Positions 284 to 49,885 are shown, numbered from the stretch's first letter. The stretch: DNA of 64,000 nucleotides from Flaccisagitta enflata (GCA_965153355.1 OZ231126.1:868001-932000), one strand, 5' to 3'. The notes: generated by a model not told the origin, from the letters alone. A program made the numbers and translations.

Positions 284-5844
<5,561 letters not shown>

Positions 5845-6329: not shown

Positions 6330-13400
<7,071 letters not shown>

Positions 13401-13822: not shown

Positions 13823-26357
<12,535 letters not shown>

Positions 26358-28695: not shown

Positions 28696-29044
28696 CATCA
28701 ACGATCTTGTCGAGGTTGTTAACTGAGCATTGGATGATTAGGAAAAAAGTTCAAGATCGCACACTTTTGCATGAGTTGTATTCTATGAAACCTAAAAAGC
28801 AGTGTATGCAAGATTCGTTAACAGCAACACTTTTTTTACCGATAAAGCGGCTAATCGCCGTAGGAAAAAAAGTCGTAAATGATGGGACTTGCATGTTTGA
28901 GGACGGCGCTAAATTAAGCCTTAAAGTGAAGCTGCCAATACAGAAATAACTATGTACAAAATCTCTCATGGAACAATAAGTTGAATGCCTCGAAGGCGGG
29001 TATGCCTTATGAGCGGGTGCGCTCTAGCTGTGCTCCACTGTGCT

Positions 29045-29141
<97 letters not shown>

Positions 29142-30102
29142 ATGTTGTTTTGGACAAGCACATTTCGTGATTCCTTTTTGGGCAGCGGCCCCAAAGGGGC
29201 CAATATATAGGGGAAAAGCTCCCGCACTCGTTGCCTAGATAACCTCCTTATTCACTAGCTGATAGGTTCATCAGATCTTTTTTTCATATTTTGTTATTCC
29301 CTAAACAGAAAAGAGAGAAATTAGGACCGCTGTCCTAATAGTGAAGAACAATATATGCTGAAGGCACAATTCGCGGTTTCCTAGGCGGAGCATGGGTAAA
29401 ATAAGCCATTTTTGAAATCAAATAAATTCAACATATCTATACATCATTGTGAAGGTAATACATTACTGTATATAAATTCACAATTGAAATTTGTTAGCAG
29501 GGTCAAATCTTTATGCAAATTAGGTTATAATGACAACATTTGAAATTTTCCTTTTTTTCAAAATTTAATCATTTGATGAAGTAAGATTGACCAGTAAAGG
29601 TCTATATTGGTGCAAATACTCAGGGGTAAATGTTTTTGCGCTATATCGATCAATGTGCAGGTGTAGTTTTGAATATTATTGAATGCAAAGACCCAGAAAG
29701 TCCAAAATATCAATATTTTGCATGTAGACTAAACAGTCATAAACACAGCGACTTTAAAGACTGGATCTATGAAATTTGAATCTAATATGTATCTATCTAA
29801 AAACCCTTACTAAAATCTGACATTATTGAAATATATCTATTTACATATATGTATATATCCATATATATTTGAAGGTTCTATACCTGCCCGCATTGGTGTG
29901 AAAACTACCAGATGTAAAGATTGTGATTAAGATCATGCCGAATGTCTTTCTAACAAAATCTCTCTGAAATAAAAATTGAAAATTTTCATAGATATCCTTC
30001 ATTCATTCATTCTTTCTATCTATCTTTCATTCTTTCTTTCTGTCTTTCTATCTTTCTGTCTTTCTTTCTTTCTTTCTTTTTTTCTTTCTTTCTTTCTTTC
30101 TC

Positions 30103-33400: not shown

Positions 33401-36073
33401 CTTGTTACCACAGTGCTACTTGATGTCCCTGACCACCTAGGGAAACTTTTCTCAAAAAAGAAATTGAGAAAGGATACTTTATATGTCATCTTATAAGGGT
33501 ATTTCCTTGGCCCGGAGAATCCCGAATTTTGCCTGAATTAAAGTTCTTATCGTGAGCTCAATTGGGCAAGTATATCTAATTTTAAAGTGCCGGGACTAGG
33601 AATACAGAAAGGAAATTGTTCAAAATTATCTTTTATTTCTGATGACTTAAACTTTCACACACAGGGGAAAGTTCGCCTTCTTCTTTTTCTCCTTCTCCAT
33701 CCATCCACCCCCTGGAGTCAAAAATCCCTGCCTTTAGACACAAATCCCTACTTTGAGGCTCAAATCCCAGCCTCAAGGATCAGATTCCACCCTCGAGACT
33801 CAAATCTCAGCTTCAAGACTCAAATCCCAGCCTCGAAGCTCAAATCCCAGCCTTGAGACTCAAATCCTAGTCTCCAGGCTCAAATCCTAGCTTTAAGGCT
33901 CCAATCCAAGCCTCAAGGCTCAAATTCCACCCTTGCGGCAATCCCAACCCTTGAGTTTAAAATCCCAGCCTCAAGGCTAAAATCCCTTCCTTGAGGCTCA
34001 AATCTTTACCTTGAGGCTCAAATCCCAGTCTCAATGCCTCAATCTAAGCCAAGCTCCTCATTGGCTCCTCATCACTGGCTCCTCCAGGGCCGCTGCCCCT
34101 CTCACTACCACATCCTAACATACGCTGACTTTGGGGCAACGGTTACCGCTGACCATCTGACGCTTTTGCGATTACTTTTTCTTGCATTTACAAATCAGCA
34201 ACAACAACAACAACTACAACAACAATGTTATTAATATCGGATGATATGGAAAAAAGTCCAAGATTTAGCTCAAGTTGTACTCAATGAAACCTGAAAAGCG
34301 GTTAATGCAAGATGTAAGAAATAACACTTATTTTGATGATGATGTATAAATTGAATATTTGAAATATATCTCGAGAGAAAAGTGCTATATCAAAAAGGAT
34401 TTCACTATGATAAAAGTGGTCTGATAGTAAAAGCAACTGTAATATCATTAATGAAAAAAAATTGACTCACATCACATATTGTTTGTCATTCATGAAAGGT
34501 ACTATGATTGCTCAATGCCTACCTGTCTACAACTTGACATCGATGTTTCAAATTTTTCAGCATGTAAGAAATAAAGTCAATCATCAATTATCATGAAACT
34601 TGGGATAGTGAACATTAAATCAATTCTTTAAGAAATAATTGTTATCAAAATCAAAATCAAAACATGTTTAGAAAACGCGCTTTCGGAATAAACAAGGCCG
34701 GATACACGGCAAGACAGTTGCTGACGGTTGGGCAGCGGCCGTAATGCAAAAACCGCTCATAATTCAAAAGTATTTGTAACCGCCGTACCGACCGACACAG
34801 CAAGGTGTAGAGTCGCGTGTCGCGACTAAGAATCTACAAGAAAGGATTACAAATGCCAAGAATGTAAAATCAAAGAGGGCGTGTTTCGCATGTCTCTATC
34901 TTTATCTCATTTCCCTTTATCTTTCATGTCTCTATCTCTATCTCTCCAGGGCGTGTTTCTAGTGATGACAATGATTTCAATCATTTACCGTTAATTCGTA
35001 TGTCTCTATCTTTGTCTCATTTCCCTTTATCTTTCATGTCTCTATCTCTATCTCATCAAGGCGTGTTTCTAGTGATGACAATGATTTCGATCATTTACTG
35101 TTAATTCGTATGTCTCTATCTTTATCTCATTTCCCTTTATCTTTCATGTCTCTATCTCTATCTCTCCAGGGCGTGTTTCTAGTGATGACAACAAACGCGA
35201 TTGTTCCCGTTAAACACATTTATAGCGTGAACATATACAGATTTCAACCATCCCAGTGATCCCACTACAGTGCGGGCGAAGTGAGTGAGGGAGCCCATGA
35301 ATAGAGTGAGTGAGCCAAGCGAGCATAGTGCTATAGAACGAGTGAGTGGAGTGAGCTCTACAAGCGAACAAACATAGCGAGCGACCAAGTGGCCCTTTCA
35401 AAACGGGATTATCTTGTCTAGAAACAGGCCCAGATAGTTTTCAAACAAGGCCGGATACACGGCCGATACCAGTTGCGAACAGGTGGGCAGCGGCGGAAAG
35501 GCGCGTTTTTACACTTTCCAACTCGATCATTATGGACGGACCGACGGACCAATGGATGGATAGATGGACGGACGGACAAAGCCTCTTATAGAGTTGCGTG
35601 TCCGCAACGAAAAATGAAACGCTGCAAATAATGCATACAGGTGATATCGAAAGCAACAGCGAAACACGACCTAAATCACTCTTTATCATTATAGGGTGGC
35701 ACCAAAGACCGTCACGTATAGAATTTGTCATGATGACTCATGAACTTAAAAACAGAATGTTAAAAAAAAAAACAAAAAAAAAAAAAAAAAACAAAAAAAG
35801 AAAAAAAAAAAAAAAAAAACAAGCATGACTGACAAATCTGAAATTATACGTACACATGTGCTCTCTACCAGAAGCTTTCTCGAGTAAATAAATGAAAGTC
35901 CTTTTGTCTATCTTTGTAAGAAATGAAATTAAGATATTGTAGATGGACTGACATATCAACGAACGGAAAACCACTGAAAAACTGGGATGGATGCATACCA
36001 GAATTAGTCTTGAAAGCAATGAGAAAAAAGTCGTGTTCTATTGCATAGAATCAACGCACCAAGAATGATCTTT

Positions 36074-37966
36074 TCACCACTCAATCTGAAACTTGATTGC
36101 TTGCACTATGATAAAGATGAAAACGGCGAGGAGAAATGTTATAAATGCGGCACCCACGAAGCCTCTTGTCAACCGTTGATATTCTTGCGCCTCAGACACC
36201 TAAAAGAGAAACATCTGTAATAACCATTGATCATTTCAGAAAAAGGTCATATCCTCAATCAAAACAAACATGTATCAAAGTATTACAAGTTTCCTGGTTG
36301 ACCTGAACCAATCACTTTTATTTTTTGTAAAAGACAACTTAAAGGTCAAAAAGCACAAAACGCAAAAAGAAAACTAGTGCTTATGGTTTCTTCAAAAAAT
36401 AAAAAGAATTGTTTCCGTAAAAAATTATAAGAAAGCAGTTTCAATACTGTAAAGCATTGTTTCAGGGATCAATCGTTTTCTGCAACAAAGTGTTAGATGA
36501 TATGATTATTTGATTCTCGGATCCGTTGTGGCGAGTCGTAACTGTACAAAAAAGGGAGGCGGAAGTTTTTGAAAATCTTAAAGCAACTTTTATTCTAAAC
36601 CAGTCCCAGCCTTTTTGCTGTTTTTATCGAGGTTTTTGGAGGGGATGGTGCATACAGAATGATTAATTTGAACTGGCAAAAAAATGATTATTATCATTTT
36701 CAAACAGTCCGATACTTGATGCTTCAAAAACTTTTTTTTTGGTCTAAATAAAAAAATGTGTCCACGACATAAATTTTAAGCACTGCATATCCTCACAAAC
36801 AATTTGACCTAAACCAACGTGATCTTGACAGTAGGAATATCAAAAATTTGATTTTAAGACAAAATCTGGTAACAAAGCTATTTTTACCAGTTGAATTTGA
36901 TCACCCCGTAACACGAAGCTTACATTTCCATTTTTGAGAGCTTCTCTCGTTCGTATCGCGTTGAAGAGAGCCACAGAACCGAGACAAAACCAATTGCAGA
37001 AGATGCAAGAAAAGATGGCCAATGGTAAATATCCTTGTCTGATGCCCGATCCTGGGGCCAGGGGCACAAACTGGGTATTAGCTGGCACTAAGGTTGGCGC
37101 CATTGTTACTTGTTGATAATTGACGGTAGAAGAAGGAGCCAATGTTACGGGTGCGTAGTTGATATGGGTCGGGGTTGCTGCCGGTGGTGGCGGGTAAGGC
37201 GTAGATACTGATGGGTAGGGCGTTGTTGCTAACGGGTAAGGGCTTGTTGTTGATGTTGGTGGGTAAGGTGATGGCCCAACAGGGCTCGGCGCGTGGAAGT
37301 TGACGTGTCCCGCACTTGCTGATGGTTGATATGGGTTTGGTGTCAACCCCATGGACCCAAAGTTGGTATGGGTAGGAGTTGATGCTGATAGGCAGGGATG
37401 TGGACACCGGACAGTGGACAGAGGGTGACACCACGCTACCTCTGAGCTATCCCCCCCCGTGACACCTCGTGAAAGGTGAGTTCTGGGGACCTGGGGCCCT
37501 TCCGAGAAAAATATTTTTTTGAAAATGGCTTTTCAATTCATTTGATTGAAAATTTTGTGATTAAGTGTTTAAAAAATAACATGAGGCCCATGAAAGGCTG
37601 ACAAAATGTCAGTGACAAGGGACTCTTGCAAGACCCAATTTTTTTGTTGAATTCGTGTATCTTTTATCATTTGACTTTATGCAAAAACAACAATTATAAT
37701 TGGACGCACTACGAAATCGAATAGGGGGCTGTAAAAGAGCAAGTTAGGGGGCCCAGCAGTTCTGTCCACATCCCTGCTGTTGGGTAAGGGGTTGGTGCCG
37801 GTGAATAAGGAGATGATCCTGTAGGTGGCTGGAACGGGGCATGTCCTGGCCTGGCCTGGCCTGGACTCGGTGTTTGGTTATAACTAATCTGTCCAGAACT
37901 CATTGATATGACGGAGTCGTAATCAGGAGGAGGAGCTGAAGGCTTTTTCTCCACATCGGAATCCAT
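36074..37966 (-). CDS. Pro-rich CD225/dispanin-family (PRRT/IFITM-like) membrane protein, about 259 aa
   Basis: Exons 37774-37966, 36924-37384 and 36074-36199. N-terminal PPPDY (PPxY) motif and P/Y/T-rich repeats. CD225 domain GYLPLAIFSCIFCNWFCLGSVALFNAIRTREALKNGN|VSEAQEYQRLTRGFVGAAFITFLLAVFIFIIV. Intron 2 is canonical; the intron 1 donor is non-canonical (see findings). Confidence 0.85.
37393..37776. mobile_element. hAT-type non-autonomous element forming intron 1 of the CD225 gene
   Basis: 14-bp perfect TIR CAGGGATGTGGACA ... TGTCCACATCCCTG; 8-bp target-site duplication (TSD) ctgatagg (37385-37392) and ctgttggg (37777-37784), 6/8 identical. Confidence 0.8.
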
Positions 37967-38257
37967 TTTTAAAGTTAAATTCTTGTCTGAAATGTAAAAT
38001 CTATGACTCTTCTAAGTCAATGAAAGTCATGTAGAACTGTTGTTGTTTGTTGTCCATATCCACAACTTTCATATTTATAGGAGAAATATGTATAGGCACC
38101 AAGAATCGATGTGAGATGCACATTTAGCGCAGAAGCAGCGTTGTAGTGGTTGCATGAATTGCTCCAGTGGCAGAAATTGCTGGGACCTCTAAACATTTCT
38201 ATTCGGTTCCTCGTGATTGCCCTTATGTTTGGCTTTGCATCACCCGATTCTCGTTTA

Positions 38258-47433: not shown

Positions 47434-48904
47434 TCATGTCCCTTGGTCCGCTGGTTGGATAAGATTTGTACAGTGCGACGCAACAAGTTGTAAAAGATGT
47501 AACTAGTCATCCAAGGATCGCAGATGGTCAGCGGTACCCGATGCCCTGCAGGGAGTTATCCAGTGATAAAGTGGAGTGAGAGCAGGGGCCCATGTCTTGT
47601 GGGGGGAATTTCCAGACGTCCTGGGGGGGCATATTTCAGGCCGTAGATTATTGATTTTGGCCACTGAGGGCATAGTTGAAGGCTGAAGGGCAGATTTGAG
47701 GTTTTGAGGGCAAATTTGAGCCATAGAGGGCTGGTTTGATGCTGTAGAGGCTAATTGAAGGTCTGGAGGTCAGATTTGAGGTCTGAAGGTCAGATTTGAG
47801 GCTGAGGGGCTGATTAGAAGCCTGGAAGGCTGATTTCAGGCCTCAAAGGCTAAATTTAGGGCTGGGAAGGCAAATTTGAGGTCTTGATGGCCAATAGGGG
47901 GGGGGATGGAAGGACGGAAGGACGGAAGGACGGAAGGACAGAAGGACAGGATGGAAGGACGGAAGGACGGAAGGATGGACGAACGTCTGGAAATTCCCCC
48001 CTGTGTTCTACAGGACATTGGCCCTTTGGGGCCGCTGCCCAAAAAGAATGATTGTATCTTTCTTCATTGCACAAGACCAGATCTTTTTCATTTTTTTAAC
48101 CTCATTTTATGCCATTGAACTTTAACAGCTTGACTGCTGAGTGCCAAGCATCTCAGCAATAATGCAACAACTTCCTAAAATTTTCAAACCCAAATGAAAA
48201 GAAAGGAAGAATTTGGTTTTCACTATCAGTCAGTGCGTGGAAAATGCTTGATTTTGCTCATAGATATCATCCCGATTAGTTAAAATTAAGCTGACATGCA
48301 ATTTCATAAACAAAATCAGTGAATATATCTATATCGCTTGGCACTGCAAGATGACATCATTAACTTTAAAACACTCGTGAATCTGTATAAACATAGACAA
48401 AAACATCCGTAATAATTTTTGCGTGTAACCCGCTCCAACGGACCCGCTTTTAATGGGATTCCGCATTTACCATTTAAGATTTTATGTTCCCATGAAATCC
48501 CTTAGAGTCGGGTTTGACTTTAAGTCTTCCCCCGCCCAACCATCCAAATAGAATAGTTAAATCAATGTAACAATCATTTTTGTCGAGTACATGTTTTCAT
48601 GGAAGACTTCCCCTGGTGGAAGACTAATGACTATCATAGATATTGATTATCAAAAAAAAAGTTGATGTTTTTGGATGCAATATGCAAGTGTCAATGTTGT
48701 CAATGTGATCTTTTCATTACAAAATTCCCTCCATCTTTAGTTCAGCAGAGGACGCAACAGTTGACAACAACCCATTTGGCCAAGTTTTAAACCGCTCCTT
48801 CTTCGTCATGGGGAAGTAACTAGAAAGAGAGACCTTGAACTCACAAATCGGATGATAGGGGCACGATGTTGAAGGTTGCCTCGTGATACCGCGCGCCGGG
48901 CACG

Positions 48905-49312: not shown

Positions 49313-49885
49313 CAGTAGATGTCGTCTAGAGTTGGAAATACGGGGGAATTCATTACAAGAAGACAAATATGTTTAAAAGACTGATATTTAGAATATAAAC
49401 TAATCAAAGGATGTTTTATTGCCCATGGGTGTTGGTTGCCATGGAAACACATTTCCATATATTCATGCTAAAGTATCAATATTTTGAGAAATTTTTTGAC
49501 GGAACATTGTTTAGAATAAAATTTGCTACAACTTTCCCACAATATGTTCTGTAAGAATATTGCTCGTTTAGTCATTGCTAAGGAGCGTAACTATGTGTGA
49601 CAGCCCCGTGATGCTCCCTAGCAATCGCCAAACGAGCGATATTCTCACAGAACATATTGTGGGAAGGTTGTAGCAAATTTTATTTTAAACACTGTTCCCT
49701 AAAAAATTTCTCAAAATATCGATGTTTTAGCCAGGATACATAGAAATGTGTTTTCAGGGCAACTAACACCCATATGCAATAAAGCATCCTTTTATTAGTT
49801 TATACTTCAAATATCAGTCTTTCAAGTTCATTTGTCTTCCTGTTATGAATTCCCCCGTATTTCCAAGTCTAGACAACATCTACTG
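49313..49885. mobile_element. TA-flanked foldback MITE (CAGTAGAT family)
   Basis: TA|CAGTAGATGTCGTCTAGAGTTGGAAATACGGGG ... CCCCGTATTTCCAAGTCTAGACAACATCTACTG|TA. Confidence 0.8.

What the first reader, a model, noticed from the sequence alone, without database searches (positions are those of the whole stretch)
37385..37784. Transposon-made intron (introner-like) with a non-canonical donor in the CD225 gene
Seen: the whole of intron 1 is a 384-bp element with 14-bp TIRs (CAGGGATGTGGACA) and an 8-bp TSD, inserted mid-coding sequence. Removing it plus one TSD restores ...PYPTASTPTHTNF.... The acceptor AG comes from the downstream TSD copy. That copy differs from the exonic one (CCCAACAG vs CCTATCAG) by two changes to T, as expected if it were adapting into a polypyrimidine tract. 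No GT donor gives the needed phase 1. The frame-preserving options are GCA G|GGATGT (a GG-AG intron adding one Ala) or ACA G|CAGGG (CA-AG); the nearby GT (AT|GTGGAC) frameshifts. Established: an 8-bp TSD with CAGGG termini is typical of hAT elements, and DNA-transposon-derived introns with non-canonical donors are reported in some algae and larvacean tunicates. Inference: an intron gain caught with its transposon hallmarks still visible.
Basis: partly seen in the sequence, partly recalled or inferred. Interest (0 to 1): 0.75.

Follow-up and report, generated by a model that had tools for sequence, protein, structure and literature searches.

The report
Small transposon splitting a CD225 gene
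A 384-base miniature transposon of the maize Ac/Ds type sits in the first coding exon of a small membrane-protein gene of an unnamed marine eukaryote, and no RNA data were available to show whether the cell splices it out as a new intron or the gene copy is simply broken.

Summary
On the minus strand a 384-bp element (37393-37776) has perfect 14-nt inverted ends (CAGGGATGTGGACA) and an 8-bp flanking duplication that now matches at 6 of 8 bases. It interrupts the first coding exon of a CD225 gene. Removing the element plus one duplicate (392 nt) gives one open 258-codon frame. Three relatives (P0002, P0003, P0004) run straight across that point with no gap. A fourth (P0001) reads through the same element end and the same altered duplicate, so the insertion is shared by two diverged gene copies. 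The element looks like an Ac/Ds (hAT) MITE.

The intron reading is untested. The one RNA run gave no reads on the locus. No GT or GC donor is in frame with the duplicate-derived AG, and this gene's other intron is canonical. The ends also fit the N3-CAG...CTG-N5 rule of Euglena nonconventional introns. The best U1-like site, CAG|GGATGT, is one base short of a canonical donor.

My best single reading (0.45) is a tolerated insertion that disrupts this copy. Precise non-canonical removal remains open at about 0.2. Interest is moderate.

The parts
37777..37966 (-). Coding exon 1 of the CD225 gene, from ATG 37966. It ends in codon phase 1 and encodes MDSDVEKKPSAPPPDYDSVISM...PYPTA.
   Evidence: Open frame. 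tblastn of P0003 residues 1-61 on 37954-37757, 59% identity, E 9e-17. BLASTP against P0003, 63% over 56 aa.
37777..37784 (-). Upstream (exonic) copy of the 8-bp target-site duplication, CCCAACAG on the gene strand.
37393..37776 (-). 384-bp non-autonomous hAT-like (Ac/Ds-like) MITE, 43% G+C, with no long ORF.
   Evidence: The end motif and the 8-bp duplication were compared with PMC3260210.
37763..37776 (-). Inverted end at the 5' side in gene orientation, CAGGGATGTGGACA. It holds CAG|GGATGT, which matches the donor consensus at 7 of 9 positions but has G at +2, and the out-of-frame GT at 37769.
37393..37406 (-). Inverted end at the 3' side in gene orientation, TGTCCACATCCCTG. It is pyrimidine-rich and supplies most of the 15 of 20 pyrimidines before the AG.
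37400..37421 (+). Subterminal 7-nt repeat GTGGACA, 3.1 copies, at one end of the element only.
37385..37392 (-). Downstream copy of the target-site duplication, CCTATCAG. Its AG (37386-37385) is the only acceptor that restores the ancestral junction.
36924..37384 (-). Coding exon 2: a Pro/Tyr-rich region plus the first half of the CD225 domain.
   Evidence: Pfam CD225 E 2e-6. P0001 at 72% identity over 178 aa.
37350..37352 (-). In-frame ATG (Met of ...GSMGL...), a possible downstream start. It is Met in this gene and in P0001, the two element-bearing copies, and Val in P0003 and P0004.
36200..36923 (-). Intron 2, canonical: GTAAGC ... TTCTCTTTTAG.
   Evidence: Joining across it keeps the frame.
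36074..36199 (-). Probable coding exon 3 (VSEAQEYQRL...IKFQIEW, then TGA). It is hydrophobic as expected for the second membrane segment. No Pfam hit on its own.
   Evidence: The assignment is inferred from splice signals and frame.

Best explanation
A short non-autonomous transposon of the hAT (Ac/Ds-like) kind cut into the first coding exon of one member of a small, fast-changing CD225 gene family and duplicated 8 bp of the target. The insertion is not brand new. A second, diverged family member carries the same element end at the same site, and a DNA run of the same organism holds it with allele-level differences.

As the sequence stands, an ordinary spliceosome has no in-frame GT/GC-AG pair that removes it. 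The most likely single outcome is that this copy's full-length message is disrupted. The element would be retained, which gives a stop after 22 element codons. Alternatively the weak GT at 37769 would be joined to the strong AG at 37385, which gives a frameshift. The loss would be tolerated because other family members exist.

Shown: the insertion, its ends, the duplication, the ancestral uninterrupted state and the shared insertion. Inferred: the fate of the RNA.
For: - Transposon hallmarks and frame logic are established.
- No in-frame canonical pair ends at the duplicate AG. All 3 GT donors in reach are phase 2 and the AG is phase 1. The 2 phase-1 GC sites (TGG|GCCCCC, CTT|GCTCTT) look nothing like a GC donor.
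- Donor matches to MAG|GTRAGT are 5 of 9 for the precise site and 4 of 9 for GT 37769, against 7 of 9 for this gene's real intron 2 donor.
- The organism uses ordinary signals nearby. Intron 2 is GTAAGC...TTTTAG. Two consensus-like sites lie in the neighbouring gene, AAG|GTAAGT and TTCTTGCAG| (those are inferred from open frames only).
- The family tolerates decay. Of the 4 relatives that span the region, 2 (P0003, P0004) have lost a recognisable CD225 domain.
- One X1 contig (depth 88.5, shorter side 27 nt) skips 37384-37434, that is the 3' inverted end and the duplicate. This suggests the region is not tightly kept.
Against: - The insertion is shared with P0001. Its first residues CPHPCLSAS are the translation of the 3' inverted end plus the altered duplicate. 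Yet exon 2 stays open in both copies.
- All gaps between the two copies are in frame. The CD225 part is 44 of 50 identical, while the read-through of intron 2 diverges at once. This hints at continued selection on exon 2 after the insertion.
- Exon 1 is still intact and keeps the PPPDYDSVI motif shared with P0002-P0004.
- The inverted ends are still 14 of 14, while the duplicate has 2 changes in 8.
- The 3' side is a good acceptor, with 15 of 20 pyrimidines followed by AG.
- The ends fit a splicing code known in Euglena.
Confidence: 0.45

Rival explanations
1. The element is a true new intron removed by non-canonical splicing. One route removes exactly 392 nt (element plus one duplicate). Because of shared bases the cut can be written as CA-AG, GC-CA, AG-TC, CA-AT, AG-GC or GG-CA. 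The other route removes 389 nt from CAG|GGATGT to the same AG, a GG-AG intron that adds one Ala. The 15-bp terminal stem brings the two junctions together.
For: - Precise removal recreates the sequence seen in 3 of 4 relatives.
- The insertion is shared with P0001, with open exon 2 in both copies.
- The acceptor is good, 15 of 20 pyrimidines then AG. CAG|GGATGT matches the donor consensus at 7 of 9, the same count as the gene's real intron 2 donor.
- The RNA fold closes the whole element with the 15-bp stem: MFE -118 kcal/mol, z -3.0, 0 of 100 shuffles as stable.
- With the intron written as 37779-37388 the ends are N3-CAG...CTG-N5 with complementary bases behind the CAG. This is the rule shown by knock-in tests to suffice in Euglena (PMC12501133, passages).
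- GV/AG introns are a recognised class in larvacean tunicates (PMC13326754, section 21).
Against: - There is no GT or GC at any in-frame 5' position, and +2 G is very rarely used by ordinary spliceosomes (established knowledge).
- The other splice sites seen in the window are canonical.
- The Euglena rule prefers a purine as first base of the downstream exon. Here it is C (37387).
- The Fritillaria YAY signature before the 5' site is absent.
- The N3-CAG...CTG-N5 fit follows automatically from any CAG...CTG element with an 8-bp duplication, so it is not independent evidence.
- An intron old enough to be shared might be expected to have gained the one G-to-T change that would make CAG|GTATGT.
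Confidence: 0.2
2. The element is partly spliced through cryptic canonical sites that keep the frame. GT 37769 (GAT|GTGGAC) would be joined to AG 37483 or 37447, leaving 33 or 21 element-coded residues in the disordered N-terminal region. Or it would be joined to AG 37315 or 37285, deleting 23 or 33 residues of exon 2.
For: One search lists these as stop-free in-frame GT-AG pairs. The altered region is a low-complexity Pro/Tyr-rich tail that already varies by in-frame gaps among relatives. The downstream frame is open for 49 codons into the element.
Against: GT 37769 matches the donor consensus at only 4 of 9 positions. The strongest acceptor (37385) is out of frame with it and would compete. 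A 49-codon open stretch is not unusual by chance (about 0.1, my estimate).
Confidence: 0.12
3. The gene now works from a downstream start. Translation from Met 37352 (transcripts starting in or near the element, or reinitiation) gives a CD225 protein without the first 75 or so residues, and exon 1 is a relic.
For: The residue is Met in both element-bearing copies (this gene and P0001) and Val in P0003 and P0004. Exon 2 stays open and conserved in both element-bearing copies.
Against: Exon 1 is intact and keeps the conserved PPxY-like motif. The ATG has T at -3, a weak context. Only one residue in four sequences supports it. No transcript start is known.
Confidence: 0.13

Closest known systems
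Maize Ds1 / Ac-Ds non-autonomous hAT elements, including Ds elements that behave as introns (adh1-Fm335, waxy, shrunken2 alleles)
   Same: The first 8 nt of the inverted end are identical to the Ac/Ds 5' end C/TAGGGATGAAA. The target duplication is 8 bp. The size is about 400 bp like Ds1, there are short subterminal repeats, and there is no coding capacity (PMC3260210, passages). The element sits in an exon.
   Different: For maize, removal from the message was shown with cDNA. I saw only the titles of Dennis 1988, Wessler 1991 and Giroux 1994 in a reference list; the papers are not held. Here there is no RNA evidence. The inverted end is longer (14 against 11 nt) and differs after position 8. 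The host is not a plant, and no autonomous partner is known.
Introners / introner elements of algae, dinoflagellates and other aquatic eukaryotes (Gozashti et al. 2022, PMC9860276; review PMC11282704)
   Same: A MITE-like element with inverted ends and a target duplication. One splice site comes from the duplicate, and element plus one duplicate is the spliced unit, so mRNA length is unchanged (passages).
   Different: Introners are defined as families with many near-identical intron copies in different genes, with GY-AG ends and RNA support. Here there is one site shared by two related genes, no family could be counted, and there is no GT/GC. Introners were found in only two animal groups.
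Nonconventional introns of euglenids (PMC3935182; PMC12501133)
   Same: Three bases, then CAG at the 5' end. CTG then five bases at the 3' end. Complementary bases behind the CAG form a stem that joins the ends. Direct CAG repeats make the junction 'slidable'. A MITE origin has been proposed.
   Different: The first base of the downstream exon is C, not the preferred purine. The 3' end is pyrimidine-rich. Nothing shows that this organism is a euglenid (39.5% G+C). Removal is untested.
Non-canonical introns of larvacean tunicates (Fritillaria AG/AC and AG/AT; GV/AG class in other larvaceans; PMC13326754, PMC11282704)
   Same: Non-GT introns at lineage-specific positions, thought to derive from MITEs. 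A GG-AG reading is possible here.
   Different: The YAY triplet before the 5' site and at the 3' end is not met together with an AG start. Neighbouring splice sites here are canonical, whereas 95% of F. borealis introns are not.

Membership tests
hAT-superfamily MITE (Ac/Ds-like) | 8-bp target-site duplication | tested here: met
   The 8-bp flanks match at 6 of 8. Removing the element alone leaves a frameshift, and removing element plus 8 bp restores the frame and the relatives' sequence.
hAT-superfamily MITE (Ac/Ds-like) | Short terminal inverted repeats starting C/TAGGGATG | tested here: met
   Perfect 14-nt ends CAGGGATGTGGACA. The first 8 nt equal the Ac/Ds end printed in PMC3260210.
hAT-superfamily MITE (Ac/Ds-like) | Several copies in the genome and a related autonomous element with a hAT transposase | not testable with these tools
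   No genome is held and there is no second copy in the window. Summed contig depth over 37394-37545 is 860-1341 against about 100 beside it in two DNA runs. This suggests that one end is repeated, but the figure is not a copy number.
Introner (intron-generating transposon family) | Removed from mRNA | not testable with these tools
   The only RNA run offered had no read on the locus. No transcript-derived protein of the family is in either protein library.
Introner (intron-generating transposon family) | Many near-identical copies forming introns in unrelated genes | not testable with these tools
   Only this gene and P0001 carry it, at the same site. Scans of metagenome, viral and prokaryote contig sets found no copy.
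Introner (intron-generating transposon family) | GY-AG splice sites supplied by element and duplicate | tested here: not met
   The AG from the duplicate is present. No in-frame GT exists, and the 2 phase-1 GC sites are unlike donors.
Euglenid nonconventional intron | 5'-N3-CAG ... CTG-N5-3' with complementary bases inside | tested here: met
   Intron written as 37779-37388: CAG|CAGGG...CCCTG|CCTAT, with a 15-bp stem. Rule from PMC12501133.
Euglenid nonconventional intron | Purine as first base of the downstream exon | tested here: not met
   The base at 37387 is C.
Euglenid nonconventional intron | Host is a euglenid with the matching removal machinery | not testable with these tools
   The organism is coded. 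A sub-threshold Innexin match at 24463-24909 (E 0.0037, 17 bits against a cut-off of 25) hints at an animal but was not confirmed.
Ordinary U2-type GT-AG intron | GT (or GC) at the 5' end, pyrimidine tract and AG at the 3' end, frame kept | tested here: not met
   The 3' side is good, 15 of 20 pyrimidines then AG. The 5' side fails.
CD225 / dispanin family (the host gene) | Match to Pfam PF04505 above the curated cut-off | tested here: met
   E 2e-6, 28.3 bits against 27.1, covering profile 5-39 of 68 in exon 2. The rest would lie in exon 3, which has no hit alone.

The most novel reading that the evidence does not exclude
An organism that otherwise uses ordinary GT-AG introns, probably a marine animal, removes a hAT-type MITE together with one copy of its 8-bp target duplication exactly from pre-mRNA, without a GT donor. 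The guide would be the terminal CAG...CTG stem, the same N3-CAG...CTG-N5 geometry that Euglena uses. That would mean a transposon-erasing splicing activity exists outside euglenids, and that this locus is an intron caught just after birth and already inherited by two gene copies.
Probability: 0.12. Interest if true: 0.8.

Novelty: new member of a known kind. Interest (0 to 1): 0.4.

Why it matters
Clear cases in which a DNA transposon still shows its inverted ends and target duplication while lying exactly where an intron would have to be are the raw material for understanding how new introns arise. Most known cases come from algae and protists, and very few from animals. This locus has three useful properties:
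- The uninterrupted ancestral state is seen in relatives.
- The insertion is shared by two diverged gene copies.
- One base change (G to T at +2 of CAG|GGATGT) would make a textbook donor.

If RNA shows clean removal, the locus would be a natural test of whether terminal-stem-guided, non-GT excision exists outside euglenids and larvaceans. If RNA shows retention, it is an ordinary gene-disrupting MITE in a redundant family.

Tried and rejected
RNA evidence:
- No RNA holder was listed by the run search.
- The one RNA run of the same study (X4, polyA, raw reads) was laid. Of 12,162,974 records read (about 6 in 100 of the run), 0 lay on 35950-38200. The tool calls this no test, and I draw nothing from it.

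Whole-genome search: no genome is held for this window.

Other copies of the element:
- Self-BLAST of the window found none. The best stray hit was 21 nt.
- The two-end pattern gave 0 hits in metagenome contigs and 0 in prokaryote genome contigs.
- An end-plus-subterminal pattern gave 0 hits in viral contigs.

DNA of relatives: the search for related loci with the family alignment A2 confirmed none of the pattern matches. These were 0 of 141 in metagenome contigs, 0 of 42 in genome contigs and 0 of 46 in viral contigs.

Protein searches:
- Exon-1 read-through ORF at near lengths: 6 candidates, none significant.
- HMMER over 1.84 billion representatives with the 230-aa read-through ORF: only 5 hits, none to the element-coded part alone.
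Whether those contigs are genomic therefore rests on inference. Their CD225 match stops at profile position 40-42 of 68, and they continue 'VSP' as a read-through of a GTAAG-type donor would.

Other ideas dropped:
- The stretch GGGGGGATAGCTCAGAGGTAGCG looked like a tRNA-like or SINE origin for part of the element. ARAGORN found no tRNA and Rfam found nothing at E up to 1.
- Empty-site allele: no joint of that kind appeared in X1, X2 or X3. X2 has no depth over 37546-37849, which proves nothing.
- Organism: Rfam and tRNA scans of the whole window were blank. The Atlas look-up of a neighbouring ORF was uninformative, and a second look-up did not complete. The Innexin-like ORF was not confirmed. 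An Atrophin-1 match at 28969-29247 lies in Arg/Glu-type low-complexity sequence, and I do not trust it.
- Earlier findings of this scan: 5 look-ups, none on this genome or sequence.

Full report
WHAT IS THERE. The gene lies on the minus strand. From an ATG at 37966 an open frame runs to 37777 and then continues into foreign sequence, stopping after 22 more codons. A second open frame, in another phase, runs from inside that foreign sequence through 37384-36924. It matches Pfam CD225 at E 2e-6, 28.3 bits against a cut-off of 27.1, profile positions 5-39 of 68. It ends at a consensus donor, GTAAGC at 36923. About 720 nt further on, a TTCTCTTTTAG acceptor at 36200 opens a 41-codon hydrophobic exon ending in TGA.

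Between the two frames lies a 384-bp stretch (37393-37776). Its ends are a perfect inverted repeat: arms at 37392-37406 and 37763-37777, 15 nt and 100% complementary. The outermost pair belongs to the flanks. The 14-mer CAGGGATGTGGACA occurs nowhere else in the window. The eight bases on either side read CCCAACAG and CCTATCAG on the gene strand, a 6 of 8 match whose chance is 0.004-0.011.

THE 8 BP IS A TRUE DUPLICATION. Removing only the 384 bp leaves a frameshift and a stop. Removing 392 nt gives one open frame of 258 codons across all three exons, with the junction ...PYPTASTPTHTNF....

WHAT RELATIVES SHOW. Two protein libraries hold only five relatives:
- The word-indexed search found 3 of 231 candidates.
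- HMMER over 1.84 billion representatives found 5 hits at E up to 0.001.

Four of the five reach the junction. P0002, P0003 and P0004 run straight across it. P0003 reads ...TPYPPASTPTHINF... and P0004 reads ...TPSAPASTPTHSNF.... P0003 is collinear with exon 1 and exon 2 by tblastn and BLASTP. P0001 instead begins MEGVTPCPHPCLSASTPTHTNF. Residues 7-15 are the exact translation of the 3' inverted end plus the altered duplicate, and tblastn places them on 37406-37380.

All the relatives that keep a CD225 match stop at profile position 40-45 of 68. P0001-P0003 then continue 'VSP', as a read-through of a GTAAG-type donor would. I therefore take these short contigs to be genomic, not mRNA.

On that reading, the uninterrupted state is ancestral, and the insertion is shared by two gene copies that differ by about 19-34% in protein. 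It is a gain, and not a very recent one.

A DNA run of the same organism (X1) has contigs bridging both element junctions without a difference: 37357-37479 and 37761-37884. Its contig across the element interior differs at 8 bases and 4 gaps in 273 nt, much like the flanks. The insertion is therefore not private to the assembled haplotype.

WHAT KIND OF ELEMENT. The first eight bases of the end equal the Ac/Ds 5' end C/TAGGGATGAAA. Ac/Ds elements make 8-bp duplications, and Ds1 elements are about 400 bp with little else in common with Ac (PMC3260210, passages read). One end carries 3.1 copies of a 7-nt subterminal repeat. There is no coding capacity. I file it as a hAT-like MITE.

Its copy number could not be measured. 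Summed contig depth is 8- to 15-fold raised over 37394-37545 in two DNA runs but not over the rest. No other copy turned up in the window or in three public contig sets.

IS IT AN INTRON? No RNA evidence could be had (see Tried and rejected), so the sequence has to carry the argument.

Against an ordinary intron:
- The only GT donors in reach (37769, 37712, 37709) are all phase 2, while the duplicate-derived AG is phase 1.
- The two phase-1 GC sites look nothing like donors.
- GT 37769 matches MAG|GTRAGT at 4 of 9 positions.
- Joined to the strong AG at 37385, GT 37769 would shift the frame.
- This gene's second intron is canonical. So are two consensus-like sites in the neighbouring gene, though those are inferred from open frames only.

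For some form of removal:
- The 3' side is a good acceptor: 15 of 20 pyrimidines, mostly the inverted end itself, followed by AG.
- CAG|GGATGT matches the donor consensus at 7 of 9 positions, as many as the real intron 2 donor, failing at +2 and +4.
- Both element-bearing copies keep exon 2 open. All gaps between them are in frame, and the CD225 part is 44 of 50 identical, while the translation of intron 2 diverges at once.
- Exon 1 is intact and keeps the PPPDYDSVI motif shared with the uninterrupted relatives.

A GEOMETRY WORTH NOTING. The duplicate ends in CAG and the element begins with CAG, so the cut can slide from -3 to +2 without changing the mRNA. Written as 37779-37388, the intron has three bases, then CAG, a run of complementary bases, CTG, then five bases.

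This is the rule that knock-in tests showed to be needed, and with synthetic introns to suffice, for nonconventional introns in Euglena (PMC12501133, passages and section 5). Earlier work described the same CA/TG positions, direct CAG repeats at junctions and a proposed MITE origin (PMC3935182, passages). The predicted RNA fold closes the element with the 15-bp stem, at -118 kcal/mol and z -3.0.

The fit is not independent evidence. Any CAG...CTG element with an 8-bp duplication meets the rule, because 3 + 5 = 8. One preferred feature, a purine as first base of the downstream exon, is not met: the base is C. Nothing shows that the organism is a euglenid. The window has 39.5% G+C and is full of microsatellites and a 132-bp satellite. 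It also carries a sub-threshold Innexin-like ORF that would point to an animal, but this was not confirmed.

VERDICT. The insertion, its family type, the ancestral state and the sharing by two gene copies are shown. The fate of the RNA is not. I weigh four outcomes:
- Disruption of the full-length message in a redundant family, 0.45. Two of four relatives have already lost the CD225 domain.
- Precise or near-precise non-canonical removal, 0.2.
- In-frame use of cryptic canonical sites, 0.12. GT 37769 pairs with AG 37483, 37447, 37315 or 37285.
- A downstream start at Met 37352, 0.13. That residue is Met in both element-bearing copies and Val in P0003 and P0004.

The suggestion that the two T changes adapt the duplicate rests on two bases.

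COMPARISON WITH THE KNOWN. The closest relatives by structure are maize Ds1-type elements. Some of these act as introns, but I saw only the titles in a reference list. By mechanism, the closest are algal and dinoflagellate introners, where a duplicate supplies a splice site and element plus one duplicate is spliced out (PMC9860276, passages; PMC11282704, passages). Introners were reported from only two animal groups. The locus is best called a new member of a known kind: a MITE in a coding exon that may or may not be on its way to being an intron.

Noticed in passing
window 36178-36481 (core 36212-36244), inside intron 2 next to the exon 3 acceptor: A very high-copy repeat. Summed contig depth is 1e4 to 1e5 against about 100 beside it in two DNA runs of the organism. 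The 32-nt core is also present in a marine metagenome run, with many different flanks. It has no clear inverted ends and only one weak second copy in the window, at 3714-3782.
   Followed up: partly
window 37384-37434: One contig of DNA run X1 (depth 88.5, shorter side 27 nt, 3 nt of microhomology) skips these 51 nt, that is the 3' inverted end and the downstream duplicate. The junction recreates ...GGTAG|CATCAAC, so an AG still stands before the same exon-2 start. It may be a second allele or a paralogue.
   Followed up: no
window 37473-37481, plus strand: The element carries a perfect donor consensus, AAG|GTGAGT, on the strand opposite to the gene. A copy inserted the other way round would bring a strong 5' splice site about 85 nt inside its end.
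   Followed up: no
window 8006-8519; 49332-49866; 47601-48001: Three other MITE-like elements. The first is 514 bp with 17-nt inverted ends and a perfect 9-bp duplication, AGGGTAGGG. The second is 535 bp with 22-nt ends and a 7 of 8 duplication. The third is 401 bp with 19-nt ends and a 6 of 8 duplication.
   Followed up: no
window 37845-37864: A (CCTGG)4 microsatellite lies inside coding exon 1. It accounts for five extra residues (QARPG) compared with P0003.
   Followed up: no
window 37921-37947 (residues PPPDYDSVI): The N-terminal motif PPxY followed by YxxV/I is kept in this gene and in P0002-P0004. It recalls the PPxY and YxxPhi signals of vertebrate IFITM proteins; this comparison is recalled, not tested.
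   Followed up: no
window 16196-21781: A satellite array of a 132-bp unit, 42.3 copies at 96% match. The whole window is unusually rich in di-, tri- and tetranucleotide repeats.
   Followed up: partly
window 24463-24909, minus strand: An ORF with a sub-threshold Innexin match (E 0.0037, 17 bits against a cut-off of 25, profile 43-109 of 333), including a YVPYALLFEAFLSYIPY stretch. No neighbouring exon matched and no relative was found among longer proteins. If real, it would mark the organism as an animal.
   Followed up: partly
window 37907-38064: A marine metagenome run (X3) holds a 169-nt contig covering the 5' leader and the first 20 codons with 3 differences. It then diverges, so a close relative or paralogue occurs in sea water samples.
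   Followed up: no
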